Positions 5,300 through 63,100 of a stretch of 64,000 nucleotides of DNA are shown here, piece by piece (positions within the stretch are counted from its first letter, which is position 1; the number at the start of each line of letters is the position of its first letter). Below the pieces are notes generated by a model, which ran no database searches, was not told the DNA's origin, and worked only from the letters and a program-made list of their open reading frames with translations. The position numbers were made by a program, and so were the translations under genes. The stretch is taken from assembly GCF_963921235.1 (NCBI RefSeq), contig NC_086097.1:84508001-84572000 (forward strand). The letters run 5' to 3'. This DNA is from Mobula hypostoma. Taxonomy: Eukaryota.

Positions 5300-5610
5300 T
5301 TCAAAAGTACGAAGTCCAAAGTAAATGTACATCACCATATAAATCCCTGAGATTTATTTTCTTGCAGGCATACTCAATAAATCCATAATAGAATAATAAC
5401 CGTAACAACAAATAATAACAGTAATTATTAATAATAATAATAATAAAAGCAATAAATATTGAGAACATGAGATGAAAAGTCCTTGAAAGTGAGACCGTAG
5501 GTTGTGTGGACATTTCAGTGACGGGGCAAGTGAAGTTGTGTGACATTTATCCTCTTTGGCTCAAGACCCTGATGGCTGAGGGGTGATAACTATTCCTGTA
5601 CCTGGTGGTT
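5300..5610 (-). mobile_element. Rex1-like LINE 3'UTR fragment
   Basis: Same 3' end as the copies at 29205, 50040 and 56013 (TTCAAAGT...AATTTATT, GAGAACATGAGATGAA). Confidence 0.6.
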
Positions 5611-5743
5611 CATCACTGCTTTGAGGAAGGACAAAGGAAAAAACAATAATGAAATGCTGAATAGAATGTAACAGTTACAAGCGAAGTGCATTGCAGGTAG
5701 AAATAAGGCGCATTGGACATGATGAGGGAGACTGAAGTCCTAC

Positions 5744-8700
5744 CCACCCTTGGCTACGAAAACTTGTAAGGAAAAGATACCCCCTGAGTCAGTGAGAGCG
5801 GGGGTGGAAGATGACTTATCGGTAGACAAGCCGGCAACTGATACAGGAACGGAACAGACAATGAGTCGGATGATCAGCATACCTGAGGCTGCAGCAGCTG
5901 CAGTAGGAGACACGCTCCAGAGTTGCGTGTGTGGCTGGGCAAAGGTTACTTCCACTACAGGCCTGAAAATACATCAGGGCAGGAAAGGATGCCTGAAGAA
6001 GGGACAACAGGGACCTCGCATCGACAGCTATTTTTTGAGAAGCAGGTCGAGTCAGTCGACTGAAGTTCAGCTGCAGGACAAAACCCAAAGTGTGCAGGAC
6101 ATCAATACCCCTGTCCCAGTGGAGGAAGAGCAAGGCACAGGAGAGCAACCCGAACGAAGCCCATTATGACCTGCAACGGAAAAGAAGATCCAGGGGCGAA
6201 AGCTGTTGATCAAGTGGCCAAAATCCTGCGAGAAGACAATGTGGGAGGGGGTCAGTGCTGACCTCTCCAACATCTTAGAGATGCTCAGAGGCACCACGAT
6301 GGAGGAGTTGGAAAGAATGGGGGAATTAATCTATAGATATGGAGCGGAACATTTTGCAGTGCTGGAGAGGAAGAAAACTACATCGATGATCCCCACTAAG
6401 TCCAGGAGGCAGAAGGAAATAGATCGTCTAGTCAGAGAGAGGAGGCAGCTGAAGAAACAATGGAGGAAGGCCACAGAGGAGGAGAAGGAAGGCGTAAACC
6501 TGTTGCAAGCAGACATCCGGAGCAGACTCGCGACACTGAGGAGAGCTGAGAACCTGGTAAGGAAGTGCAGGAAGAAGGAACGGACAAGAACAAGCTTCTA
6601 TAAAGATCCCTTCAAGTTTGTGAAGGGTCTCTTTACAGGGGAGAAGAGTGGAAGTCTCTCAGTGTCAAAGGCAGAACTGGAAAAATACCTGGAAAAGTTA
6701 TACACAGACCACCGATGCCACGAAGATATCACACTCCCACCTGACGTGCCACCAATCCATCCACCGGAACACCAACTAGATATCAGCCCACCTAGATGGA
6801 GTGAGGTGGAGAACATTGTGCATAGAGCAAGGGCCGCATCAGCCCCAGGTCCCAATGGAGTTTCATACAGACTCTACAAAAATTCACCAGGTGTCCTGCG
6901 GTTCCTCTGGCGGCTCATGAAGGTGGTATGGCGTAAGCAGGAGATACCAACATCCTGGCAGAGAGCTGGAGGAATCCTGCTCCCAAAGGAAAAGGGTTCA
7001 TCAGAAATCGTCCAATTCCGCCAGATTAGTCTCCTAAACGTCGAGGGCAAAATCTTCTTTAGTGTGGTGGCTCATAGGCTGTCAAGATATCTGCAAAGAA
7101 ACCATCTGATTGATACATCAATCCAGAAATCAGGGATCTCGGGCTTCTCTGGCTGTCTGGAACACGCTTGCACCATCTGGCATCAGATCCAGATCACCAA
7201 GGAGAAGGGAACAGATCTTCACGTGGTGTTCCTGGACCTCACCAACGCCTTTGGCTCAGTCCCTCATAACCTCCTCTGGATTGCTTTCAACTTCTTCAGG
7301 GTTCCAGTGGCCTTCACAAGCCTCGTTAAGGCCTACTTCTAGGATGTGCAGCAATGTTTGACAACAGCAGATTACGCCACAGTGTGGCTACATCTGGAAG
7401 TGGGAATCAGGGCCGGTTGTACCATCTCCCTGCTAGCCTTCACCAAGGCCATGGAGGTGATCATTAGAGCATGTCGATGGGTGGTTGAAGGACAGCGCGT
7501 AAGACCTGGCCTGAGGTTGCCGCCTATCAGAGCATACATGGATGATCTCACAACACTCTCCACGACCAAGGCTTGTACTGTACACCTGCTGAGAAAGCTT
7601 CAAGAGAATATCGAGCAGGTTCAGCTGACGATCAAGCCGAGCAAGTCCGGAAGCATCTCTATCGTCAAGGGGAATCTGGTAGACTAACTCCTCTACATGG
7701 GCGATCAGATGATTCCAACAGTCTTTGAGAAGCCTGTGAAGAGCCTAGGTCAGTGGTATAACGCATCCCTCAAAGACACAGAGCAGGTAGGTCAGCTCAG
7801 GAAGGATGCCGTCAGTGGCCTCGAGAGCATCGGCAGAACCACACCCTCTGGCAAGTTGAAGCTCTGGTGTATGCAATTTGGGCTCCTTCCATGCCTCATG
7901 TGGCCATTAACCCTGTGTGAAGTTCCAACCTTGAAGGTGGAAAAGCTGGAGAGACTGATCGGCTCATATGTAAGGAAGTGGCTTGGTTTTCCCAGGAGCC
8001 TCAGCAGCATAGGGCTCTACGGCAAGGGAATCCTAGAGCTACCCATTTCCAGTCTTTCAGAGGTGTACAAGAGCGCCAAAGTAAGTCAGAGATGATGTTA
8101 ACAGAGGCGAGTGATCCATCTGTAGCACAAGCTGCCCACGTCCTGGATACTGGGAGGAAATGGACTCCATCAGAAGCAGCCGAGCAAGCAAAGGCGGCTC
8201 TCAAGCACAGGGACATCGTGGGCCGAGTGCAGCACGGGAGGAGCGGTCTTGGCCTTGGGGACAGTACACCAGCCTGGAGCAAGGCTGCTCCGTCTCAGAG
8301 GCACAGGCTCGTGATGCAGGAGATACGTCGGCAGTAGGAGGCAGCAAGGTGCGCAAAGGCCATTGCTCAGGCAAGGCAAGGGCAATGGATGAGATGGGAG
8401 GGAGTGGAGAAAAGAAAGATCTTCTGGAAAGAGCTGTGGGAGATGGGGACATTCAGAGCGAGCTTCACCATCAGGGCTGCCTACGATGTCTTGCCGTCTC
8501 CCATGAATCTCAGCCAGTGGTATGGAGAGGACCCCACATGCTCCCTCTGCCCGACTTCAGCAACACTAAAACACATGCCGGTGGGCTGCAAGACCAGCCT
8601 TACTTAAGGCCGATACACCTGGTGGCACAACCAGGTGCTAGGGTGTCTTGCAGTGGTGCTGGAAAGTCGGCGGATGAGCGTCAGCGCTCTCCCTCCCCCT

Positions 8701-9463
8701 TCATCCTGCTGGCCATTAACAGCATTTGTCCGGGAAGGTGAGGGTCAAGCCAGACTCAATACATCGAGACCAGACACCGGGCGGCTAGGCGGGGCACGTG
8801 ATTGGAAGATGGTGGCAGACTTAGGCCAGAGGCTCTGTTTCCCAACTGAAATCACGGAAACCAACCTCAGACCAGACCTTGTGCCTCGCTCCATCTCGTT
8901 TACATCATTGAGCTTACAGTGCCCTGGGAGGATGCAGTGGAGGAGGTCTACGAGCGCAAGAAGCTGAGGTACACTGAGCTTACAGTGCCCTGGGAGGATG
9001 CAGTGGAGGAGGCCCACGAGCGCAAGAAGCTGAGGTATACTGAGCGTACTGCCGATGTGCAACAACGTGGCTGGAAAGCAAGGGTCTGACAGGTCGAAGT
9101 AGGCTGCAGAGGATTTGTAGCCACATCAACATCAAGGCTACTCCGGGAGTTGTGAGTGCGAGGAAAGACACACTGACAGGCAGTCAAAGATCTCTCCAGA
9201 GCTGCTGTAAAGGGTAGTCAGTGGCTCTGGATGAAGAGAAAGGATTCCATCTGGGCCCCCAAGTGAGTGAAAGGCATCTGGGGGTGAGCCCAGGACGCCA
9301 GGATTCACTGCTGAACCCTCCGGAGGTGTCGTGGGCCTATCAGCGAAACACTGAGGAAAGAGGGCGCCCACTTGATAGCCCAGAAGATGCCACCACTCCC
9401 TTGGCCACCCCACAGAGTCTAGGCAGCATTCCTCAGGAGTGCAAATAAGGGATATTAACATCT
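5744..9463 (+). mobile_element. Near full-length HERO-like non-LTR retrotransposon with restriction-like endonuclease (RLE)
   Basis: N-terminal zinc finger CVCG...GLKIHQGRKGC; RT motifs PGPNG, FRQISLLNVEGKIF, VFLDLTNAFGSVPH, AYMDD; CCHC motif CSLC...LKHMPVGC; RLE motif RPDLV...IIELTVPWE...ERKKLRY; flanked by the direct repeat AGTCCTAC (5736-5743 and 9464-9471). Confidence 0.9.
5750..9266 (+). pseudogene. Disrupted single ORF (zinc finger-RT-CCHC-RLE) of the HERO-like element
   Basis: Consecutive ORF pieces at 5750, 6206, 7346, 7697, 8389 and 8635, separated by stops and frameshifts; ends WLWMKRKDSIWAPK*. Confidence 0.85.
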
Positions 9464-16430: not shown

Positions 16431-16836
16431 GAGAATTTTTTTTAATATAAATAGTTTATTTTGAAATAAAAACACTTAGCTTTGAAACGCAACAAGTCTC
16501 AGCAAGGAGTCTTGGTGAAGGAGTTTAAATCTATTAAATTTTTCATGGAAACGTATCAGAAATGTCCACCTACACAGATGACTAAAACAAGAGACAGACC
16601 CATATCGTCTGATCTATAAGACTGCATCTGCACATAGTCAATACAGTTGAAGAGCCACAGAATAGCAGTGAGTCATGTTAGTGAGAGGTTAATTTCCTGC
16701 AAGATCCAATTTTACCATAACTGTCTTAAAACATAATGAGTTGTGATCACTATTTCCCCGCTTAAATGTTTACCTATTATCAGGTCTGTCAACTGGTGTG
16801 CCTCATTTCCCAAAACTAGGTCCAGTATGTTCATTC

Positions 16837-16971
16837 AACACACATCAAAGTTGCTGGTGAATGCAGCAGGCCAGGCAGCATCTCTAGGAAGAGGTACAGT
16901 CGACGTTTCAGGCCGAGACCCTTCATCAGGACTGACTGAAGGAAAACACAGTTTGTTTGTTGTTTGTTGTT
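16837..16971 (-). mobile_element. Penelope-terminus mini-insertion with hammerhead
   Basis: Perfect 16-bp TSD TCCAGTATGTTCATTC (16821-16836, 16972-16987); matches the Penelope 3' terminus. Confidence 0.85.
16897..16934 (-). ncRNA. Minimal type I hammerhead ribozyme (Penelope-associated)
   Basis: Minus strand reads CAGTC-CTGATGA-AGGGTCTCGGCCT-GAAA-CGTC-GACTG: stem I CAGTC/GACTG, stem II AGG/CCT, palindromic loopless stem III, GUC cleavage triplet. Confidence 0.75.
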
Positions 16972-18735: not shown

Positions 18736-18990
18736 ATGCTGAGAGCTATCACTGAGTTTTAAGTCCAGCACCCCTACACAGTACTAAAGATGGGCCATTC
18801 TCCATGATGAAGAAACTGGATTATTTTAATTCTCAGCCATTTAAATGATCAGAGAGACAAACTCAGCATCAGAAATCCAAGGACAGAAAAAACAGTAAGT
18901 AAAAGCATTATTGCATCAAAGAGTTAATGCAGACATTGCAGTTGGCCGTCATGGTAACATAGCGATCAGCATGACACTATTGCAGCTCAA

Positions 18991-21146
18991 CTGTCAGAGG
19001 CAGAGCGCTCTGTTCTCAGTAAGGGCCTCACCTTTGTCCCCCTTCGCCCACACCTCAGCGAGTTCCGTGTTCGCCATGATGCGGAACTCTTCTTCCGCCG
19101 TCTCCGTCTCCGTCTCCAAGACTACTTCTTCGGCAAGGGCTCTTCCACCCCCACCGATGACCCCTTCTCCCGTCTTCAACCCTCCTCTTCTTCATGGACA
19201 CCCCGCTCTGGTCTTCTGCCTGGTCTGGATCTCTTTATCGCTAATTGCCGACGGGACATCAACCGTCTCGACTTCACCGCACCTTGTTCCCATTCCAACC
19301 TCACTCCTTCGGAACGCTCTGCTCTCCACTCCCTCCGCACTAATCCTAACATTATTATTAAACCTGCCGATAAGGGGGGTGCTGTTGTAGTCTGGCGTAC
19401 TGACCTCTACCTTGCCGAGGCACAGCGACAACTCGCGGATACCTCCTCTTATTTACCCCTCGATCGTGACCCCACTAAGGAGCACCAGGCCATTGTCTCC
19501 CACACCATCACCGACTTTATCCGCTCAGGGGATCTCCCATCCACTGCTACCAACCTTATAGTTCCCACACCTCGCACTTCCCATTTCTACCTCCTACCCA
19601 AGATCCACAAACCTGCCTGTCCTGGCCGACCTATTGTCTCAGCTTGCTCCTGCCCCACCGAACTCGTTTCTGCATACCTCGACACGGTTTTATACCCCCT
19701 TGTTCAATCCCTTCCTACCTATGTTTGTGACACTTCTCACACTCTTAAACTTTTCGATGATTTTAAGTTCCCTGGACCCCACCGCTTTATTTTCACCATG
19801 GATGTCCAGTCCCTATATACTTCCATCCCCCATCAGGAAGGTCTCAAAGCTCTACGCTTCTTTTTGGATTCCAGACCTAATCAGTTCCCCTCTACCACCA
19901 CTCTGCTCCGTCTAGCGGAATTAGTCCTTACTCTTAATAATTTCTCCTTTGGCTCCTCCCACTTCCTCCAAATTAAAGGTGTAGCTATGGGCACCCGTAT
20001 GGGTCCTAGCTATGCCTGCCTTTCTGTTGGCTTTGTGGAACAATCTATGTTCCGTGCCTATTCTGGTATCTGTCCCCCGCTTTTCCTTCGCTACATCGAC
20101 GACTGCATTGGCGCTGCTTCCTGCACACATGCAGAGCTCGTTGACTTTATTAACTTTGCCTCCAACTTTCACCCTGCCCTCAAGTTTACCTGGTCCATTT
20201 CCGACACCTCCCTCCCCTTTCTAGATCTTTCTGTCTCTGTCTCTGGAGACAGCTTATCCACTGATGTCTACTATAAGCCTAGTGACTCTCACAGCTATCT
20301 GGACTATTCCTCTTCTCACCCTGTCTCTTGCAAAAACGCCATCCCCTTCTCGCAATTCCTCCGTCTCCGCCGCATCTGCTCTCAGGATGAGGCTTTTCAT
20401 TCTAGGATGAGGGAGATGTCTTCCTTTTTTAAAGAAAGGGCCTTCCCTTCCTCCACTATCAACTCTGCTCTTAAACGCATCTCCCCCGTTTCACGTACAT
20501 CTGCTCTCACTCCATCCTCCCGCCACCCCACGAGGAATAGGGTTCCCCTGGTCCTCACCTACCACCCCACCAGCCTCCGGGTCCAACATATTATTCTCCG
20601 TAACTTCCGCCACCTCCAATGGGATCCCACCACGAAGCACATCTTTCCCTCCCCCCCCTGCATTCCGCAGGGATCGCTCCCTACGCAACTCCTTTGTCCA
20701 TTCGTCCCCCCCATCCCTCCCCACTGATCTCCCTCCTGGCACTTATCCGTGTAAGCGGAACAAGTGCTGCACATGCCCTTACACTTCCTCCCTTACCACC
20801 ATTCAGGGCCCCAAACAGTCCTTCCAGGTGACTCACCTGTGAGTCGGCTGGGGTGATATACTGTGTCCGGTGCTCCCGATGTGGGCTTTTATATATTGGC
20901 GAGACCCGACGCAGACTGGGAGACCGCTTTGCTGAACACCTACGCTCTGTCCGCCAGAGAAAGCAGGATCTCCCAGTGGCCACACATTTTAATTCCACAT
21001 CCCCTTCCCATTCTGACATGTCTATCCACGGCCTTCTCTACTGTAAAGATGAAGCCACACTCAGGTTGGAGGAACAACACCTTATATTCCGTCTGGGTAG
21101 CCTCCAACCTGATGGCATGAACATCGACTTCTCTAACTTCCGCTAG
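18991..21146 (+). pseudogene. Penelope RT-endonuclease ORF: open from 18991 to about 20650, then a frameshift in a poly-C run and a small deletion near 20830
   Basis: Frame of ORF 19798-20727 is stop-free back to 18991 (LSEAERSVLSKGLTFVP); the GIY-YIG part is in ORF 20853-21146. Confidence 0.85.
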
Positions 21147-21435
21147 TGCCCCACCTCCCCCTCGTACCCCATCTGTTACTTATTTTTATACACACATTCT
21201 TTCTCTCACTCTCCTTTTTCTCCCTCTGTCCCTCTGAATATACCCCTTGCCCATCCTCTGGGTCCCCCCCCCTTGTCTTTCTTCCCGGACCTCCTGTCCC
21301 ATGATCCTCTCGTATCCCTTTTGCCTATCACCTGTCCAGCTCTTGGCTCCATCCCTCCCCCTCCTGTCTTCTGCTATCATTTTGCATCTCCCCCTCCCCC
21401 TCCAACTTTCAAATCCCTTGCTCACCCTTCCTTCA

Positions 21436-21475
21436 GTTAGTCCTGACGAAGGGTCTCGGACTGAAACGTCAACTG
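21436..21475 (+). ncRNA. Hammerhead ribozyme motif in the Penelope 3' terminus
   Basis: CTGACGA-AGGGTCTCGGACT-GAAA-CGTC core with a few stem mismatches. Confidence 0.65.
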
Positions 21476-22249
21476 CACCTCTTCCTAGAGATGCTGCCTG
21501 GCCTGCTGCGTTCACTAGCAACTTTTATGTGTGTTGCTTGAATTTCCAGCATCTGCAGAATTCCTGTTGTTTACTATTGCAGCTCGGGGTTTTCTGGAGA
21601 GTGGAGTTCTGTCCCAGTTCTGTTCTGTGAGGAGTCTCTGTCTGACCTCCCTGTGGAATATGTGGGGTTTCTCTGGTTCCACAATCTAAAGATATACTGG
21701 GTAGATTAAATGGTCTTTGTAAATTGTCCTGTGACAAGGTTAGAGTTAATTTAGGCTTGTTGGGGTTGCTGAGGTGCTGTGCCTCGAAGGGCCAGAAGAG
21801 TTTACTCCGCACTGCATCACTGAATAAATAAAGAAAGCAAATGACTCCCGTGAATTCTTAAACTGTGCAGAGTGGAAGAAGCTTGTACTTTGGGTGGGGA
21901 GAGTTGAATACCATGTGAAGTTTGCTTGGTTAAAGTCTCGATGGAAATGGCACCTCATCCATCACAAGCATGAAGGGGGTTCACAATGAGAACATAGAGT
22001 ATAAATACTATCCTCAAATCAGGGTCACCACCATGCGAGTCCAATTACAAAAGCTCTCATCACATTAGCAATAGTAGCTAATCAACACCGGGTGGCTCCT
22101 ATATAGGAGGTGAAATATTAATTGTATGAGAAGATGAGATACTTAACAATGATGCATTAATATAAGTCGAGAACAGCTAATCAGAACAGTGTTACCAGTG
22201 CAACATCTGCACAGAGGAAATTTGCCTGGCAGGAAAGTACAAGGGAGGG

Positions 22250-29204: not shown

Positions 29205-30140
29205 AAAGTTCAATGTAAATTTATTATCAAAGTACGTATATGTCACCATATACTGCTCTAAGATTCGTTTTCTCGAAGGCATTCACAGTAGAACAAAAAA
29301 TACAATAACATAATGAAAAAACTACATACAAAGACAGACAGAACAATAAGAAAAAGAAGGGAAGGTGTACAAATACAAAATAAATAATAATAATAATAGT
29401 AAGCAAATAAATAATACAGAGAACATAAGATGTCTCCCCTCTCGCTGTGGAACGGGATCACCTCTTTTTCCCATATTAGCGAGAGAGAGAGAGAGTCCAT
29501 GGTATGTCGAATTACCGGGTGATGAGTAGTCTTTGGGATACTGCAAATCTGTGTCTTTCTTGATGCTTGCTGCATGCTTGAGTGCTTGGTGGAGGACGCT
29601 GATGCTTTTTTGCTGGTGGGGGTGGGAAGGTGTCGTTTCCTTGCTTATGCATGGGAAGGGGGTGCTGGGGGGGCTTTGGGGTTCTAACATTTAACTGTTA
29701 CTCCTCTGTTTTCGTGGATGATTGGGAAGAAAAAGAATTTCAGGATGTGTACATTTCTCTGACATTAAATGTACTGATTGAGTTATTGAAAGTGAGTCCA
29801 TAAGTTGTGGAATTAGTTCAGTGTTGAGGTGAGTAATATTAACTATGTTGTTTCAGGAGCCTGATGGTTGGAGGACATAAACTATGCGTGAAGCTGATGG
29901 TGTAGGACCTAAGGCTTCTGTACCTCTTTCCCGACGGCAGCAATGAGAAAAGAGCATGGGCTGGATGTTGGGGTCCTTGCTGAAGGATGCTGATTTCTTG
30001 TACAGTGCTCCCTGTAGATGTGCTCAGTGGTGAAGAGGGCTTTTCCTATGATGGACGAGGCTGTATCCACTATTTTTTGCACACTTAGGGCATTGGTGTT
30101 CCCAAACCAGGCCATAATGCAAACAGTCAGAAATGTTTTC
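29205..30140 (-). mobile_element. Rex1-like LINE 3' part, interrupted by an insertion at 29429-29780
   Basis: MAWFGNTNA...QKIVDTASSIIGKAL; shared 3'UTR and tail. Confidence 0.7.
29429..29780 (+). mobile_element. 5'-truncated copy of the 14597-15424 element
   Basis: Reverse-complement similarity to about 14600-14985. Confidence 0.75.
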
Positions 30141-30720: not shown

Positions 30721-32954
30721 CAGTCGGCCCTCCTTATCTGCGAGTTCCGCATGCGCGAATTCAACCAACCGCGAATCGAGAAAACCTGGAAGTGCTCTTC
30801 CAGCACTTGTTCGAGCATTAATCGCCCCGCGTCTTGTTCGTTTGCTACTTCATTCCTGTGAAAAAATGGCTCCTCAAAAGCAACTAGGTGGTCAAAGCAA
30901 TTCCTCAAAGGCTAAGAGGGAGCGTAAAGTGCTATCTCTTGCTGAGAAATTAGAAATATTAGATCTTTTGAAAAGTAGCATGTCGCATTCCGAAGGGCCG
31001 TAAGGTCAGTAAGAACAAATCGAGCATTTGCGCAATAAAGAAGAAAGAAGCTGAAATTCGTGGAAGTGGAAGTGCTGCCCCTACAACGGCAAAAATGGTC
31101 TCTCTGGTTCGTGATAAAGTGCTTGCAAAGACTGCAAAAGCATTAAGTGTGTGGCCAGAGGACATGTCACAGAAGCATATCCCCGCTGATGGCCAAATTA
31201 TACATGAAAAAGCTCTTAGCCTCTTTGACCACCACTGTGATGGGGTTGAGGGGAGCGAGAGAAAAGAGTTTAAGGCTAGTAAGAGATGGCTGGCTGGCTA
31301 TGTAAAGCGCTACAGCCTCAAGAACATAAAGATCACGGTAGAATCGGCATTGGCTAATGCCGAGGCCGCAGCAGCATTCCTAGAGGAGCTCAAGAAACTC
31401 ATCGAAGAGAAAGGATACCTTCCAGAGCAAGTCTTCAACTGTGATGAAACGGGCTTGTTCTGGAAGAAGATGCCCAATCGTACCTACATCCAGAAGAGTG
31501 CCCAGCAGGCCCCGGGGTTCAAGGGCTGGAAAGATTGCCTTACTCTGGTGCCGTGTGGCATCACAGCAGGCCACATGATCAAGCCAGGCCTCGTCTACCG
31601 AGCAAACAATCCCCGGGCCCTTAAGAACAAAAATAAAAATTGCTTACCTGTGTTCTAGCAACTCAACAAGAAGGCTTGGGTGACAGCGATCTTGTTCTTG
31701 ATATGTTTCCACCAGTGCTTCATTCCTGAAAGGAAGAAATACCTCGAAGAGAAGGGGCTGCCATTCAAGGCTCTCAACATAATTGACAATGCTCCTGACC
31801 ATCCCCAATCTCTCTGCTTCACCGATGATAATGCCTCCTAACACTACTTCACTGCTGCAGCCACTTGATCAAGGCATCATCAAGTGCATTAAGGCGACTT
31901 ACTCCCCCCTCACCTTCGGGAGGATTCGTGCTGCCCTTGATGCTAACCCTGACTGCAGCATCATGGATTTATGGAAGAAATTTACAACTGCAGATGCAAT
32001 TGTGCTTATTGCAGAGGCTGTAGACGCCGTGAAGCCCGAGACAGTTAATGCATGTTGGAACCCCCTATGGAGTGAGACAGGCAGTGATTTCAGGGGCTTC
32101 CCCACTATTGATGCAGAAGTCAGGAATATCTTGAATGTTGCAAGGGAAGTTGGCAGGGAAGGCTTCTCTGACATGATCGAGGACGATGTCGAGGAACACG
32201 TAGAAGAGCATAGAGAAACCCTCACCAACGAGGAACTCGACGATCTGCTGAGATCCTCTACAGAAAATGACGATGATGATGATGAAGATTTAGAGGAGGC
32301 AGGGCCATCAATTTGGACACTTGAAAAATTTGCAGCAGTTTTTCAACAGATGCAAGTGTTAAAGGATATGATCCTTCGATGGAATGAAGCCTCCGTGTCA
32401 CCCGAGGGATAACACCATGCCTAAAACCACTGCAAGATTTGTTTGAAGAGACAGCTTCCTATAACAATGTTTCTAACTAAACTATCTGCAATTCTAAAGT
32501 TTTGACGTTCAGTGCTTGAAGATCCTCACCCCTCAACCTCCGCAGCTCCTGACTTTAGTATTATTCAGCCTCCTGCAAAGCGTCCTTATTCCATAAACAA
32601 GACAGTGTAACAACTACTGTACAGGTATTACAAATTTTATTCGTTGTTTGATCATTATTCGCCTCGCGTCTCGTTCGTTCACTGCTTGTGTTGTGAGCGG
32701 GAGGGACATGGACCTTTTTTTTCTCGTCAATATTCCCTAAACAAACAACTATTTACATAGCATTTACATTGTATTAGCTATTATAAGTAATCTAGAGATG
32801 ATTTAAGGTACTTGTATATGGGAGGATGTGTGTAGGTTATATTCAAGTACTACGCCATTTTACATAAGGGGCTTGGGCATCCACGAATTTGGTATCTGCG
32901 GGGGGGGGGGAGGGGTCCCGGAACCAATTCCTCGTGGATAAGGAGGGCTGACTG
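30721..32954 (+). mobile_element. Full-length Tigger/pogo DNA transposon
   Basis: TIR CAGTCGGCCCTCCTTATC / GATAAGGAGGGCTGACTG; TA target duplication on both sides. Confidence 0.95.
30866..32560 (+). pseudogene. Tigger (CENP-B/pogo DDD) transposase, disrupted
   Basis: MAPQKQ...RKVLSLAEKLEILDLL; EFKASKRWL; QVFNCDETGLFWKKMP; PPNTTSLLQPLDQGII; multiple stops and frameshifts. Confidence 0.9.
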
Positions 32955-36559: not shown

Positions 36560-36900
36560 TTGTTTATAGATCACTACAGAATGTTTCTCTGGTGCTTCCC
36601 TCTCACTCCCCTCTCCCTGGTGATTCCTCTCTCCCTGATGAAGTCTCGGCCCGAAACATTGACATCTCTTTTCCATAGATGCTGCCTGGCCTGCTGATTT
36701 CCTCAAACATTTTGTGTGCATTCCCTTCTCCCATTCTCAGTCCACATTAGAGACCACTATCAGAATCAGGTTTATGTGTCATGATACCTTTTTGCAGCAG
36801 TGTGTATAAAATTATTACAGTACTGTGCAAAAGCCTTAGGCACCCTACCTTTATACATATGTGCCAAAGATTTTTGCTCTCTGTTGTATATATCACATCT
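36560..36900 (+). mobile_element. Penelope-terminus fragment with hammerhead motif, plus small adjacent repeats
   Basis: CTGATGAAGTCTCGGCCCGAAAC at about 36635; GATGCTGCCTGGCCTGCTG. Confidence 0.6.
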
Positions 36901-41199: not shown

Positions 41200-43330
41200 G
41201 TGATATGATAGGTTGTCCATGATAAGCTCAGCAAGACTTATGAATAAGGAATATCATCAAAGATGGTGCGAAAAAAGAATTTAACCTGATACTACACTAG
41301 CTTATAACCCAAGGGATAAGAGTGCTGTTTGCCCAAAAAAATTTGCTCAAGGACACTGAAAGATGGAAGGGGGCAAAATAATAGCAGAGGATAAGCCAAT
41401 ATTTGTACAGGCCCTGGCAACCAAGAAAGATGCATAGCAAATCAGATCTTGATAAAACTGTTTTAAGTCCAAGGGAATGTTTAGAACAACTTGCAAGAAA
41501 TATCAAAAATAACATTGGTCCACAATTTGGAAAATGAGCAACCTCTTAAAGGCATATAATGATGACATAAAAGGAATTTAAAAAGTCAATATGGTGAACT
41601 ATTACCTTACATTGATGTTTATAGTGAATGGAAAGGAAAACATACCAGGCATCCTGAAATTACTCATGAGTAAATTGCTACTCATGTCTGTGTTCACTGT
41701 CTACGGTCCCATCAGCCTGGACAAGTGCCTACCAGGTGCAGAAGATGGAGGCAGCAGAGGCCCCTCCCATAGTATCCTGATGGCAGTTCTAATGGAGACA
41801 TTTAAAGGGATTCAGTTTAAAAATAATACAATAAAATAAACGCAATTAAAATCAAAATATTATAGACCCATAGAGTAATATAGGACAGAAACAGGCCTTT
41901 CAGCCCAACTGATCCATGCTGACCACAGCATCCTAATCTCCATGCCATGGTCAGCACAGACCAATGGGGCTGCCAGGCTTTAGAAAGTAATCAAAAACTT
42001 GACATTAAAGAAGTTGACTCATTTACCATTCAATAGATGGGTCCAGCCCTACCTTTAGAGTGTAGCAAAGCAGAATAAGGTCAGGTGCATGATCTTCTGA
42101 TCTTAAGGATGTTTCAGTGTATGCAGACAAGTTTGAAACTTCCTGGATATCAAAAGGCTGATCACCATAAACCACTGATGACAGGTAAGCGCAGTTAGCC
42201 CCTTAAATAAAATTTGGGATATAGTCTTAGTATAATCCAAATCAATGAATATCACAATTACAGAAAAAAAGTGGAACTGAAGGTAGAAATGAAGATGATG
42301 TTCCATTTCAGAATGTTAATAAAAGAACCTGAAAACATTTGAAGGTTAATATATGGGTGATAATTCCAGAATTGTTCCTTTGATTGGAAAATTGTACACA
42401 ATACTCCATTATTTAGGAAAGCCAAGTAGGTTTAAAAAAAAACAATTGTCTCAATATCTGCTTTCTTGAAATGGCTGGAGTTTACAGTTAAGGATGGAAT
42501 GATTAAAAACCTTGAAAACTTTTGTGTATTTGTAAAAGGCCAGCTGTTTCTGACTAACCTGACTGAGTGTTTTGAAGAGATAGCTAAAGAAAACAAAAAT
42601 ATAAATGATGAGGATGTTACTTATCCTGATGTCTTGATGAAGAGTCTTGGCCTGAAACGTTGAATCTTCATTCCTCTCCGTAGATACTGCCTGACCTGCT
42701 GAGTTCCTCTAGCATTTTTTTTGTGTGTGTGTGTTACTTAGGATTTCCAGCATCTGCAGAATCTCTTGTGTTTGTGAGGATGTTATTTATGTGATTTTGC
42801 TACATAAAGTACCTCACAAGAGACCAATAGCTAATGTTTCTGCTTATGCACTTTAAACTATTGACCAGGTTGAGAAGAGCGGAGATTATAAAAAGGCAGT
42901 CAGTCTGGCAGTGCATTCCTGGGTGTGGTTTCTAAGGTCCCTGCTTTATTGTTATTATTATTATTATTCTGCCATAACTAATCCAATTTGTCAAAAAACC
43001 TAACCAAATGCAGAGTCACATGCAATATGATGGCTGCATAAATTACAAAGATTGAACGAATCAATTACAAGAATAAACAAGATTGTGGTAAATCAATTTT
43101 GATACAGGCAAGCTATTTGATAGAACTCGACAAAACTCTTTCCAAACACTGAACAGCAAGCAGCTGTGATGGGTCGATCAAATGCAGTGCATATACATGG
43201 ATTGTTAAAGTGTCATTGACAACTACAGAAGATATCAAGGAAAGCAAATAGAATCCCAGCTGCGTAAAAGCATGGTAAGATCTCTGATAAACAAAGACAA
43301 CTGGTCTGAAATTATCTGGACTAAACTACG
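41200..43330 (+). mobile_element. Highly decayed CR1 LINE with nested insertions
   Basis: FVKGQLFLTNLTECFEE motif (GFxKGRSCLTNL..FFE); AAGTACCTCACAAGAGAC. Confidence 0.55.
42625..42774 (+). mobile_element. 150-bp Penelope-terminus insertion starting at the hammerhead
   Basis: 16-bp TSD TGAGGATGTTA(C/T)TTAT (42609-42624, 42775-42790); TGATGAAGAGTCTTGGCCTGAAACGTT. Confidence 0.8.
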
Positions 43331-54174: not shown

Positions 54175-54371
54175 AACAAACAAGAGAAAATCTGCAGATG
54201 CTAGAAATCCAAGCAACACACATAAAATGCTGGAGGAACTCAGGAGGCCAGGCAGCATCTACGGAAAAGAGTACAGTTGACACTTCAGGCTGAGACCTGA
54301 TGAAGTTGACTGTACTCTTCTCCTTAGATGCTGAGTTGCCTGCTGAGTTCCTCCAGCATTTTGTGTGTGTT
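54175..54371. mobile_element. Fold-back (hairpin) Penelope-terminus mini-element
   Basis: Perfect 14-bp TSD TCTCCAGAGCCTGA (54161-54174, 54372-54385); inverted arms of about 65 bp. Confidence 0.85.
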
Positions 54372-54734
54372 TCTCCAGAGCCTGACCTGGTTTATCCAAG
54401 AACACTGTGTGAGGTGAGAAAAGGAATTTTAGGAGCCATGGCTGAGAAATTTGCATCATTGTTAGCCACGGGTAACATGCCAGTAGATTGGTGGGTAGTG
54501 AATGTTGTGCATTTAAGAAGGACCGCAAAGAAAAATTGGGAACTATAGAATAGTAATTCTAATACATGTGATAGATAAGTTGCTGGAGAGGATTTTGAAG
54601 ACAAGGGTTGATTACGGGTAGTCAGTATGGCTTTATGCTTTGTAGAGTATTCTTTATAAACTTTATTGAATTTTTTTGATGATTTCACCATAAAGGTCAA
54701 TAAGGGGAGGACAGTAGGCATGATCTATATGGAT

Positions 54735-55410: not shown

Positions 55411-56525
55411 GTCTGTACTCCAGTAAAGCCTTTAATGAGGTTCCACATGGTAAACTGCTTTGAAAGATTAGATTGTATAAAATTAGGGAGAGTTGGTTAA
55501 ACCGGATACACAATTGGTTTAATGCTAGGAAACAGACAGTAATGATGTAAGGTCGTAATTAATGGTGTACCTCAGGGGTCGGTTCTGGGACATTGTTGTT
55601 TGTCATCAATATCAAAGATTTGGATGTGAATGTACGAGGCATGGTTAGCAAGTTGCCAATGACTGTAAAATAGGTGGTATTATGGACAGTGAAGAAAGTT
55701 ATCAAAAATTATAGAGGGATCTTGATCAGCTGAGTAAAAGCAAGTGGAGTTTAATTCAGATAAATGTGAGTGGTTGCATTTTGGAAAGCTCAATCAAGGT
55801 TAGGACTTTCAGAGTGTATGTTATCCCTAGGGGAATGTCGTAGGATGGAGGGACCTTATAGCTCAGATACATGATCCTCTGAAAGTGGAGTCAAAGGGAG
55901 ACAGGATTGTGAAGAAGGCTTTTGGCATGTTGATCTTCATCAGTCAGGGCACTGAGTCTAAATGTTAGGAAGGCATGATGCAGTTGTACAAGACATTAGT
56001 GAGAACATACTTGTTCAAAGTTTAAAGTTCAAAGTAAATTTATTATAAAGTATATATATGTCGGAGATTCATCCAAAAACCATAACAGAATTAACGGAAG
56101 ACCACTCCTAAAGGGTGGACAACCAGGGTGCAAAAGACAATAAACCGTGTAAATACAAAGGAAGAAAAAAGAAATAATTGCAACCCTCCACTGGTACTCA
56201 TATACCAACTTGGCTCGTTAGCTAACTCTGCTAACAGCCGCCTGACTCAGCGGTGAGAAGGCCATCTTTCATAAGCAATATACGTCTGGGGTTGGTATGA
56301 TTTGGAGCTCAACCAAACAAGAATGTCAGGATGTTCCAAATGATGGAAACTCGATTTGAGCAAATTCTGTATAAATACTGCCCATACACAATTATCGGAG
56401 GCCAGAAATGACAGATAATACACCAGCATAAAATTATAAAGTATATGTACTGAATTTACAGTTACTGAAAAAAAAGGAAAAATGAAAAGGCTCATTACAG
56501 TTAAACAGTCCAATATGTACATAAA

Positions 56526-57059
56526 CCATGGTTTTCGGTCCGGCGCCGGACGCTTGGAGCGATTCGGTGGGAGGCGGGTGTCTGGTGCTCGGCTGGGGGC
56601 CGTGGTCGGCGACTTGGGCCGGGCCCCCCACCGGACTTAGTCTGGTAAGGAGGGTGTGAGGACACCCAGCAGGACTTAAAAAAAGACCTGACAAAGGGCG
56701 GATGAGCTCCTTGTGATCCAATGGCCATCTTCCATGGAAGAGATTAAAGCCTCACCACGTATCTACGAATCGTATGCTATGCACCTAGTTAGAAGAGACA
56801 TGATGAAATTGGGCGCTGCACCGTGTGCCTGGACCTGCCCAAGGCCTCCGCCTAAGGAAGGGCCGAGCTCGAAGAAGCGGCCGCGGCTGGAGGCCGACAC
56901 GACCTCGGGCTCGAGTTCAGCAGGGGCGGCGGCAGGCGATGCCAAGGTGGCTAGCAAGAACAAACTGGAGGAGAAGCTCTACTTGGTGCTGTCACAAGAC
57001 TGAAGAAGATGGAGGTGCATAGCTGCCAATCCTGGATTCGGGACAGCACCCACTGACTG
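56526..57059 (+). mobile_element. Chimeric short retroposed insertion (RTE-like 3' end plus captured host sequence)
   Basis: 11-bp TSD ATG(T/C)ACATAAA (56515-56525, 57060-57070); VRRDMMKLG...LSQD*RRWR resembles the RTE ORF C-terminus; ACTGACTG tail. Confidence 0.65.
56815..56992 (+). pseudogene. ZFTRAF1: Circularly permuted 178-bp fragment of the ZFTRAF1/CYHR1 N-terminal coding region
   Basis: 56851-56992 encodes PKEGPSSKKRPRLEA...[12 protein letters not shown]+T and 56815-56850 is GC+[11 protein letters not shown]; joined they give [22 protein letters not shown], versus recalled human [22 protein letters not shown]. Confidence 0.85.
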
Positions 57060-59149
57060 ATGCACATAAAAATTGGAGCTCATTTCTGGAGTAGTCTGGG
57101 GTGGATCATTTCACTCACATGCTGAACCCATGTTCTGCGTGAAAGCACCTGCCACAGTCTGAATTTCCCTCAAAGACCATCTCAAATGAACTGCCTCTCT
57201 CAAGAGTATTGGCCCTTCTTCCTTGGAGTTACTCATCTGCACAAAGCACTTCTTGCCAGGAGACTCTCCTTCCACCGGCATTCTGCAGCATCTTCCCTTG
57301 TGTTCCGCTCCACAGTTCCTGCTAACAGGACCCCAAACCAGATGACTGTCCTTCAGAAATCTCTTCCTGCCCAGCTTTCTAGAACCTTAGCTACATCTCA
57401 CAGTCCTGACTGGCTGACACAACATTCCTAGGTTGGACAATATGACTTCTTATTTTTAACTGAAGCTAAAACACTCTTACCAGCAGGATACACTGCTTTT
57501 ACAGAAAACTGCTAACATAAAATACCTCATAGCATAGTGGTAGAAATCTTAACCGGGGCATTACATATAAATAATAATAAATAGATCAACAGTAAGTATC
57601 AAAACATGAGATGAAGAGTCCTTGAAAATGAGTCCATAGGATATGGGAGCATATCAGTGATGGGGCAAGTGAAGTTCTCACCTTTGGTTCAAGAGCCTGA
57701 TAGTTGAGGGGTAATATCTGTTCCTAAACCTGGTGGTGAGAGTCCTGAGGCTCCTGTACCTTCTTCCTGATTGCAGCAGTGAGAATAGAGCATGACCTGG
57801 GTGGTGAGGGACCTGGCAATGGTTGCTGCTTTCCTGTGACAATGCTCCGTGTAGATGTGCTCAATGGTTGGGAGGGCTTTACCCATGATGGACTGGGCCA
57901 TATCCACTACTTTTTGTGGGATTTTCTGTTGAAGGGCATTATATTTCTATACCAGGCTGTGATGCAGTCAGTAAGTATACTCTCCACTGCACATCAGTGG
58001 AAGTTTGTCAAAGTTTTAGATGTCATGCCGAATCTTCACAAACTTCTAAGGAAGCAGAGGTGCTACCATGTTTTCTTCACAATTGCACTTACATGCTGGG
58101 CGCAGAATGGATAGGTCATCTGAAATAATAACACTGAGGAACTTAAATTTGCTAACCCTCCCCAACTCTGATCCTTGGAGTATTGTGGAGTAGTTTGAGT
58201 ATTGTGTTCAGTTTTGGTCACCCTGCCATAGGCAAGATCTGAAAAAGATGCAGAAAAGATTTGCAAATACGTTGCCAGGATTCAAGCGAATGAGTAAAAG
58301 AGAGCTTGGGCAGGTTAGGACTTTTCCCATGGGGTGTACGAGACTCATAGGTGATCTTATGGAGGTATCCTGGTGATCTTAAAATATCAAAGAGGGGTAT
58401 CAACAGGGTGAATGCACTTTTTCCCACATATTGGGGATTCAAGAACTAGAGGGAATAGGTTTAAAGGAGAGGGGAAATATTCAATAGGAACCTGAGGGGT
58501 ATCTATTTAACATACAGGGTGGTATGTATGTGGAATGAACTGCCAAAGGAAGTGGATGGGCTTGGTACAATAGCAACTTTTAAAAGGTATTTGGACAAGC
58601 ACAGGGATAGAAATGCTTTAGAAGGTTATGGGCCAAACACTGGCAAATATAGGGTCAATTTGGATGGGCATCTTGATGAGCAAGAACTAGTTGGGCAGAA
58701 GGGCCTGTTTACAGGCTTTATGAACCTTTGACTCTATGACTGTGGCTACCAAGTGTCTGGAACAGTATAAGAGCATTGTACAAATATTTGGCCACTTTTC
58801 TAACCACAGGATAAAGTTCTTTTTTCATACTTTAATGGATCCCTCATCTATCAACTGCTGTTCACTGTTCCATTTTCCATTATCTGAAAATGGAAGTATT
58901 CAATTTCTGATTACTTCTCCACAGCAATTAACCCTAACTATGAGGCAAGGAGTAAAATCCTTGGTAGCCCCATTTGGAAAAAAAATGCAGACAGTTGCTC
59001 TCAAAAGTACTAATAAATAAGTTAACTAAGAACAACTTGGCATTATTACAAATAAAAAGTAAGATTATGGGACAAAAATGGATATATCTTTCACAGACTT
59101 GGGTCATTTCTAGGCACTGCTGGTAAGAGTTCTTTGTGATAAAACTCTA

Positions 59150-62019: not shown

Positions 62020-63100
62020 GATAAAGACCAAGGAACTGATTGTAGACTTCAGGAGAGGAAAAATAGAGGATCATTGGAGGATCAGAGGTAGGGAGAGATA
62101 GCAACTTTAAATTCTTTGGTGTTACCATTTCAGAGGACATATCCTGGACCCAGCATGTACATTCAATTGCGAAGAAAGCACAGCAATGCCTCTACTTCCT
62201 TACGAGCCTGCAAAGAATTGGCATGTCATCAAACACAATCACAAAGTTCTATAGATGTGTTGTGGAGATTATATTGATTGGCTGTATCATGGCCTGGTAT
62301 GGAAACACCAATGTCTCTGAATGGAAAATCCTACACAAGGTCGTGGATTTGATCCAGTGCATAACAGTAAAGCGCTGCCAACTATTAAGAACATCTACAT
62401 GAAATGCTGTCATAGGAAAACAACATCCGTCAGAGATCCTCACTACCCAGGCTATACTCATTTTTCACTGCTGCTATCAGGTAGAAGGTACAAGAGCCTC
62501 AGGACTTGCACCACCAGGTTCAAGAAGAGTTACCACCCTTCAACCATCAGGCTTTTGAACATAAGGGGATAGCTACACTCACTTGCCCAGCCATTGACCA
62601 TAAGACCATAAGATATAGGAGCAGAAGAAGGCCATTTGGCCCATTGAGTCTGCTCCACCATTCAGTCATGGGCTGATCCAATTCTTCCAGTCATCCCCAC
62701 TCCCCTGCTTTCACCCCATACCCTTTGATGCCCTGGCTAATCAAGTACCTATCTATCTTTGCCTTAAATACACCCAATGACTTGGCCTCCACAGCAGCTC
62801 ATGGCAACAAATTCCACAGATTTACCACCCTCTGACTAAAGTAATTTCTCCAAGTATATTCGTAGTTGCTTGGATGCAACAGGCAGCTGTGGAATTCCTA
62901 CAAAATAGATATATAGAACGCAACTGGGTGACCAAAAACCATCATAGAAATTCACAAAATTTATAATATTGAAAACAACTCATTTTGTAATTTACCCTCT
63001 GGTCAAGTAAATATTCCTGGTCGCATGTCATCTTGTTCTCATTGAGATGTTCCCACAACTAATGATTTCACTTTAAGGACTCTTTATCTTGTTATTTCAT
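62020..63100 (+). mobile_element. Rex1/Babar LINE 3' half, with a minus-strand CR1 3' end nested at about 62597-62850
   Basis: KTKELIVDFRR, FKFFGVTISEDISW, FYRCVVE, SGRRYKSLRTCTTRFKKS; CCATAAGACCATAAGA tail. Confidence 0.85.

What the first reader, a model, noticed from the sequence alone, without database searches (positions are those of the whole stretch)
56526..57059. Short RTE-like retroelement carrying captured host-gene cargo: single event or new chimeric family
Seen in sequence: a 534-bp unit bounded by an 11-bp near-perfect TSD, with an ACTGACTG tail. Its RTE-like C-terminal remnant (VRRDMMKLG / LSQD*RRWR) is split exactly by the permuted ZFTRAF1 piece. CpGs are well preserved compared with the flanks, which suggests a young insertion. 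Inference: either the cargo was captured during or after this one insertion, or a master element already carrying it is propagating as a gene-fragment-shuffling SINE family.
Basis: partly seen in the sequence, partly recalled or inferred. Interest (0 to 1): 0.7.

Follow-up and report, generated by a model that had tools for sequence, protein, structure and literature searches.

The report
Short retroposon carrying rotated host exon
This is a complete copy of a short jumping element that carries, in the middle of its tail, a 178-base piece of a host gene with its two halves swapped as if a tiny circle had been cut once; it is probably one of many copies of a family that captured the piece once, long ago.

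Summary
The 534-bp unit is real. It has an 11-bp target-site duplication (10/11), an (ACTG)2 tail and a 178-bp cargo that reads as one frame when its end is run into its start. New here: the first 80 bases form one long hairpin with 11 G·U pairs and no A·C mismatch, on the + strand only (z −5.2; rank 2 of 5114). A perfect 11-bp inverted repeat closes across the cargo (0 of 1000 shuffles), so both sides are one tail. Two corrections: the CpG excess lies in hairpin and cargo, so it does not date the insertion; and the cargo-free join as drawn is out of frame. Best reading: a two-ended non-autonomous RTE-type element whose founder captured a small circle of a host exon once. I could not test copy number, the RTE identity or the ZFTRAF1 identity: no genome was held, no reads were laid, and all protein searches were blank. 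The scan has found this structure before on other DNA of this genome (12 unchecked AI notes, most claiming about 700 to over 1000 copies). Verdict: new variant of a known kind.

The parts
56515..56525 (+). Left target-site duplication (11 bp)
   Evidence: 10/11 match to 57060-57070; G+C rises from 30-40% to 70-80% just after it
56526..56605 (+). 5' terminal long hairpin: 29 pairs (16 G-C, 11 G·U, 2 A-U), two single-base bulges, no A·C mismatch; only 5 A in 80 bases
   Evidence: -48.1 kcal/mol, z -5.2, 0 of 500 shuffles; minus strand -16.4, z +0.3; pair list; rank 2 of 5114 80-mers of the window
56606..56775 (+). Rest of the putative 5' leader, with several short hairpins; about 56749-56772 can pair with the loop of the long hairpin. 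The right border is inferred.
   Evidence: fold of 56526-56810 z -2.8, 1 of 200 shuffles; loop-to-leader duplex -24.4 kcal/mol, 14 of 500 shuffles; 56650-56790 alone is not beyond chance, z -0.45
56776..56814 (+). Left part of the LINE-like 3' region (frame AMHLVRRDMMKLG); 56776-56786 is the left arm of an 11-bp inverted repeat
   Evidence: translation; inverted repeat I19; 0 of 1000 shuffles reach 11 bp
56815..56992 (+). 178-bp G+C-rich cargo with two blocks in swapped order (about 35 bases, then about 143), ZFTRAF1/CYHR1-like by recall; no duplication of its own
   Evidence: end-to-start reading in one frame and border scan; 66% G+C, 14 CpG; gene identity not confirmed by any search
56993..57059 (+). 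Right part of the LINE-like 3' region (QD*RRWR frame, short 3' UTR); right arm of the inverted repeat at 57013-57023; (ACTG)2 tail at 57052-57059
57060..57070 (+). Right target-site duplication; its first base, A, continues the tail repeat by one base
56734..57003 (+). 89-codon AUG-started frame running through the cargo; not longer than chance
   Evidence: 54 of 500 shuffles give a frame as long

Best explanation
The unit is a full-length copy of a short non-autonomous retroelement built from the 5' and 3' ends of an RTE-type LINE. It was inserted whole by target-primed reverse transcription, using a partner LINE's protein (insertion anatomy shown; RTE parentage and partner inferred). The 178-bp cargo was captured once, in a founder copy, inside the 3' region between the arms of an 11-bp stem, and was then copied along with the element (position shown; founder and family inferred). 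The swapped block order with no gain or loss at the rejoined ends is what a small circle opened at one point gives. I rate the capture routes, given the family model, as: a nucleosome-sized DNA circle from a G+C-rich exon patched into a break, about 0.5; the reverse transcriptase copying a circular RNA for one turn and jumping back, about 0.3; several jumps on a linear RNA or a tandem duplication in the source, about 0.2. The cargo is most likely a passenger.
For: One 11-bp duplication brackets the whole unit. The short repeat tail and a duplication starting with A fit animal RTE LINEs (PMC6007223, passages). The hairpin starts at the first base of the unit and works on the + strand only, the strand of the tail and the frames, as expected for an intact transcribed 5' end. 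The perfect 11-bp inverted repeat across the cargo is reached by 0 of 1000 shuffles, so the cargo interrupts one piece. The cargo has no duplication of its own and rejoins in frame. Two-ended non-autonomous elements are reported for only four LINE clades, RTE among them (PMC5786205). [quoted passage not shown]
Against: No second copy of any part lies in the window (blastn; nhmmer on 4 parts). No search tied the flanks to RTE or the cargo to ZFTRAF1. Three short motifs looked up in the RTE/SINE alignments of PMC5786205 gave hits only in unlike contexts. Copy number rests on unchecked AI notes alone, and the scan's own sequence look-ups for this stretch returned nothing. The 11-bp stem has only 0.14 pairing probability in the whole unit, and the cargo-free 3' part folds no better than shuffles (z -0.44). 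No T-stretch lies about ten bases before the duplication. In the human set 80 of 82 circle insertions stayed on their chromosome of origin; I do not know where the source gene lies.
Confidence: 0.72

Rival explanations
1. One-off event. A cargo-free two-ended element inserted here, and the exon piece entered this copy alone, during or after insertion.
For: No other copy in the window. The anatomy of one copy cannot separate this from the family model.
Against: A rare composite is more likely to be met in a sampled window if it is multi-copy (inference). Unchecked notes report the same piece at other coordinates of this genome; these are leads, not tested here.
Confidence: 0.12
2. The flanking parts are not RTE. 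They come from another LINE clade or a host transcript, and the short peptide likeness is chance.
For: The likeness covers about 20 residues and is recalled. Pfam, HMMER and Atlas searches gave nothing usable. No RTE alignment of PMC5786205 matched beyond 7-8 bases.
Against: There is no poly(A) tail and no tRNA head. The repeat tail, the A-start duplication and the structured 5' end fit RTE. A pattern for the tail motif hit this spot and 1 unrelated spot in six frames of 64 kb.
Confidence: 0.1
3. The 5' 80-100 bases are a second captured piece (a host CpG island or a fold-back made during insertion), not the element's own head.
For: It is G+C- and CpG-rich like the cargo. An unrelated G·U-rich hairpin elsewhere in the window (41895-41980) shows such stems can arise outside this element. 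Another note reports host exon pieces at LINE fronts in this genome (unchecked).
Against: 11 G·U against 0 A·C is not what strand-neutral decay of a DNA palindrome gives (about 1 in 2000 if each were a coin toss; my calculation, and the fold was chosen to maximise pairing). The hairpin loop can pair with the downstream leader (14 of 500 shuffles).
Confidence: 0.15

Closest known systems
Bipartite ORF-absent non-autonomous RTE elements: Bov-A, RTESINE1/2, WALLSI3, RTE-N2_Lch (PMC5786205; parts 1-4 of 5 read)
   Same: Short, no small-RNA head, a 5' leader-like part joined to a LINE-like 3' end, repeat tail, target-site duplication.
   Different: A 178-bp host coding piece sits inside the 3' part; the parts read describe no such cargo. 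No parent LINE was identified here.
SVA_F1 (MAST2 exon 1, 84 elements) and pt_SVA_D6 (STK40 exon 1, 94 elements) (PMC6139936; passages)
   Same: A G+C-rich host exon piece carried by a non-autonomous retroelement and, if the family model holds, amplified with it.
   Different: There the exon is colinear, at the 5' end, and gained by splicing. Here it is internal and block-swapped, and the carrier is LINE-derived.
eccDNA-mediated germline insertions with AB->BA order (bioRxiv 10.64898/2026.09.03.749254; passages) and microDNA (PMC6511871; passages)
   Same: Cyclic block order; size near one nucleosome; exon or CpG-island source; no duplication of its own.
   Different: Those are single insertions, nearly all on the source chromosome. 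The passages seen describe none carried onward by a retroelement.
circRNA-derived pseudogenes (PMC4897178; part 1 of 2 read)
   Same: Non-colinear order of gene pieces, same strand as the carrier, no poly(A). circRFWD2 gave at least 33 copies, with LTR sequence enriched in the flanks.
   Different: Their junction is an exon-to-exon back-splice. Here, by recall of the gene, the junction lies inside one exon; this was not testable.

Membership tests
Non-LTR retro-insertion | Target-site duplication around the unit | tested here: met
   11 bp, 10/11; 2 matching places in 64 kb
Bipartite non-autonomous RTE | 3' microsatellite-like tail, with the duplication starting on a base of that repeat | tested here: met
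   (ACTG)2 then A; pattern from PMC6007223. Only two units, so weak.
Bipartite non-autonomous RTE | No tRNA, 5S or 7SL head | tested here: met
   ARAGORN 0 genes; Rfam 3 weak hits, all far below cut-off, none a head RNA
Bipartite non-autonomous RTE | 5' and 3' parts align to one autonomous RTE LINE | not testable with these tools
   No genome held; no eukaryotic repeat library; motif look-ups in one supplement uninformative
Bipartite non-autonomous RTE | Many copies with distinct duplications | not testable with these tools
   0 further copies in the window; no reads were laid; counts exist only in unchecked notes
RTE insertion signature (PMC6007223) | T-stretch about ten bases before the duplication | tested here: not met
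   Only TT at 56501-56502; the paper reports just a slight T excess for a lizard RTE LINE
Twister-headed RTE (Perere-3 type) | Twister ribozyme core at the 5' end | tested here: not met
   No Rfam twister hit to E 5; core motif from PMC8501958 gave 0 matches at 3 mismatches
eccDNA-mediated insertion | Cyclic AB->BA order against the source interval with full coverage | tested here: inconclusive
   End-to-start reading is in frame, but the source gene was not obtained
circRNA-derived pseudogene | Junction at a back-splice between exon ends | not testable with these tools
   Source gene and its exon borders not obtained; by recall the junction is inside an exon
SVA_F1-type exon capture | Colinear first exon joined at its splice donor to the 5' part of the element | tested here: not met
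   Cargo is internal, between arms of the 3' inverted repeat, and block-swapped

The most novel reading that the evidence does not exclude
A nucleosome-sized DNA circle from a host first exon entered the germline inside a two-ended RTE element, and that founder then spread to hundreds or more sites. This would be a single microDNA integration amplified by retrotransposition, with the G+C-rich cargo possibly helping the element's transcription. The A-poor, G·U-rich 5' hairpin may be either a selected RNA end structure or a fixed footprint of A-to-I editing of the founder RNA.
Probability: 0.3. Interest if true: 0.72.

Novelty: new variant of a known kind. Interest (0 to 1): 0.48.

Why it matters
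Host exon capture by non-autonomous retroelements is known from primate SVAs, and circle-derived insertions are known as single events. An element that joins the two, with a circle-shaped exon piece fixed inside a LINE-derived tail, would keep one small-circle capture in many copies. The ancestral junctions could then be read exactly and the DNA-circle and RNA-circle routes told apart. Hundreds of copies of a coding fragment could also mislead gene annotation and read mapping for the source gene. No function is shown, and this copy is probably an ordinary member.

Tried and rejected
Genome-wide copy count: no whole genome is held. Laying public reads on the locus gave no result, so the empty site, copy number and source gene stay open. 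The run list showed 4 DNA rows of one organism with 0.65-0.85 of the words, 4 of a second with 0.41-0.44, small unlaid shares in others, and no RNA holder listed; none of this is used as evidence. Protein searches were blank: word-indexed search 3 of 3, HMMER on 1.84 billion representatives 0 hits, Atlas no usable hit, PDB 0, Pfam only DUF6248 at E 0.034, below cut-off. The queries were 49-103 residues and partly low in complexity, so the blanks are weak. Collection scans were blank: one 23-base pattern in metagenomes 0; protein patterns 0 of 598 and 0 of 406 candidates confirmed. Rejected: a twister head; a tRNA head; the 89-codon chimeric frame as a new gene (54 of 500 shuffles); CpG content as a clock; my early idea that the first 100 bases were CpG-island cargo (weakened); kinship of the 41.9-kb hairpin with the unit (alignment scores within the shuffle range). 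Literature, listings only: RTE/SINE/shark/stingray (20 of 34 listed), ZFTRAF1 or CYHR1 (25 of 123), CYHR1 with retro (19 of 19), gene names with SINE or retrotransposon (15 of 9,670, none holding the gene names); none describes this element by title or abstract start. Searches returned 0 papers. Repbase and Dfam could not be searched.

Full report
Setting. The window is 42% G+C with CpG observed/expected 0.30 and many decayed repeats. It looks like a vertebrate genome; other notes of the scan call it a cartilaginous fish (unchecked). No whole genome is held and no reads could be laid. What I tested myself is therefore the anatomy of this one copy.

Borders. The 11-mers at 56515-56525 and 57060-57070 match at 10 of 11 bases. 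No other 11-mer pair with at most one mismatch joins the two border zones searched, and no third place on the + strand of the window matches. G+C jumps from 30-40% to 70-80% just inside the left repeat. The unit ends in ACTGACTG and the right repeat begins with A, continuing the tail by one base. Animal RTE LINEs often end in short repeats and have duplications that start with A, with one or two bases of overlap (PMC6007223, passages). The T-stretch which that paper finds about ten bases upstream is absent here.

The 5' end. Bases 56526-56605 fold into one hairpin that starts at the first base after the duplication: -48.1 kcal/mol, z -5.2, 0 of 500 shuffles. The minus strand gives -16.4, z +0.3. 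The stem has 29 pairs (16 G-C, 11 G·U, 2 A-U), two single-base bulges and no A·C mismatch, and the 80 bases hold only 5 A. I chose this stretch after seeing it, so I folded 5114 80-mers across the window on both strands. It ranked second, with the largest strand gap among the 14 best. A DNA palindrome decaying without regard to strand should collect A·C as often as G·U, so the stem points to an RNA-level cause: selection on the transcript, or A-to-I editing of a founder RNA (inference). The hairpin loop can also pair with about 56749-56772 (14 of 500 shuffles; fold), which loosely ties head and leader together. No twister core or tRNA head was found. A second, unrelated G·U-rich hairpin at 41895-41980 shows such stems are not unique to this element.

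The 3' region and the cargo. VRRDMMKLG and LSQD*RRWR lie in one frame either side of 56815-56992. A perfect 11-bp inverted repeat, 56776-56786 with 57013-57023, spans the cargo; the best of 1000 shuffles reached 10. The two sides thus belong to one piece that the cargo interrupts. Against a working stem: its pairing probability in the whole unit is 0.14, and the cargo-free 3' part folds no better than shuffles. The cargo is 178 bp. Read from its end into its start it keeps one frame and runs into Cys-Cys-x-x-Cys; of 49 border choices only the stated one gives the double Cys. It has no duplication of its own; the longest border repeat is 4 bases. It is in frame if base 56992 is shared, and by recall RTE proteins have several more residues here, so the cargo may have replaced a short stretch (inference).

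Age. CpG is high only in the hairpin (1.11) and the cargo (0.74). The RTE-like parts give 0.58 and 0.21 against 0.39 and 0.12 in the flanks. The surviving CpGs argue against great age; one mismatch in the duplication and a stop inside the tail motif argue against a fresh insertion. The age is not measured.

Identity. The names ZFTRAF1/CYHR1 and RTE are recalled. Searches with the whole open frame or the longer cargo block were blank. Three short motifs found only unlike contexts in the supplement of PMC5786205. These blanks are weak because the queries are short, but the names remain unconfirmed here.

Single event or family. The window holds no second copy of any part. In the scan's notes, 15 of 215 notes on 209 windows of this genome mention ZFTRAF1 (8 shown). 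Across I saw 12 notes on a ZFTRAF1 piece in such an element, most describing it as swapped and 176-180 letters long: 7 notes at 6 other places on this piece of the genome, and 5 on other pieces. Most follow-ups claim about 700 to over 1000 copies. These are unchecked AI notes. They changed my reading, from 55% one-off to the family model, but I could not test them, and the scan's sequence look-ups for my stretch returned nothing.

Mechanism. Shown: whole-unit insertion with a duplication, a strand-specific 5' hairpin, and cargo inside the 3' piece in cyclic order. Inferred: an internally deleted RTE derivative mobilised in trans, as for Bov-A, RTESINE and WALLSI3 (PMC5786205, parts 1-4 of 5 read), with one capture in a founder. 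For the capture I favour a small DNA circle opened once. The size fits microDNA of about 180-400 bp, which is enriched from exons, 5' UTRs and CpG islands (PMC6511871, passages), and cyclic AB->BA order is the published signature of such insertions (bioRxiv 10.64898/2026.09.03.749254, passages; its supplements were not seen). The RNA route is a real rival: the cargo lies in the sense of the element, and a reverse transcriptase copying a circle would meet its own product after one turn (inference). Published circRNA pseudogenes, however, have exon-to-exon junctions (PMC4897178, part 1 of 2). The 89-codon frame through the cargo is no longer than chance (54 of 500).

Known and new. It works like a bipartite RTE element, and like SVA_F1 in carrying a G+C-rich exon (PMC6139936, passages), but fails the SVA_F1 test on position and order. 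Membership of the bipartite RTE class is likely, but its two main tests could not be run. Four paper searches, seen as listings only, showed no description of this element; repeat databases were not searchable. PMC8501958 and PMC3747384 were seen as passages. Verdict: a real feature, a new variant of a known kind, interest 0.48.

Noticed in passing
window 41895-41980 (-): A near-perfect hairpin with an unbroken 24-pair stem (34 pairs in all, 6 G·U; -59.4 kcal/mol; z -6.3 on this strand, -3.9 on the other). It is the best-folding 80-mer of the window, unrelated to the unit, with only a weak Rfam miRNA hit (23 bits against a cut-off of 104). By recall one arm resembles a CR1-type LINE/SINE tail, so it may be a fold-back copy.
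   Followed up: partly
window 5726-8741 (+): A LINE in several broken frames; the 390-residue frame 6170-7342 hits Pfam RVT_1 at E 3.4e-07. Clade not tested.
   Followed up: no
window 18958-20727 (+): A 589-residue stop-free frame with a weak RVT_1 match (E 0.001, below cut-off); Penelope-like by recall, not tested.
   Followed up: no
window 30972-32412 (+): A Tc5/pogo-type transposase remnant in two frames; HTH_Tnp_Tc5 at E 2.9e-08.
   Followed up: no
window 54212-54374: A palindromic element of about 160 bp with related pieces near 306-410, 16830-16944, 21428-21572, 36634-36726 and 42630-42775; MITE-like.
   Followed up: no
window 57566-58175: An older repeat about 500 bases right of the unit, 73-75% like stretches at 5426-5609, 29780-30079 and 62078-62588; not part of the unit.
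   Followed up: no
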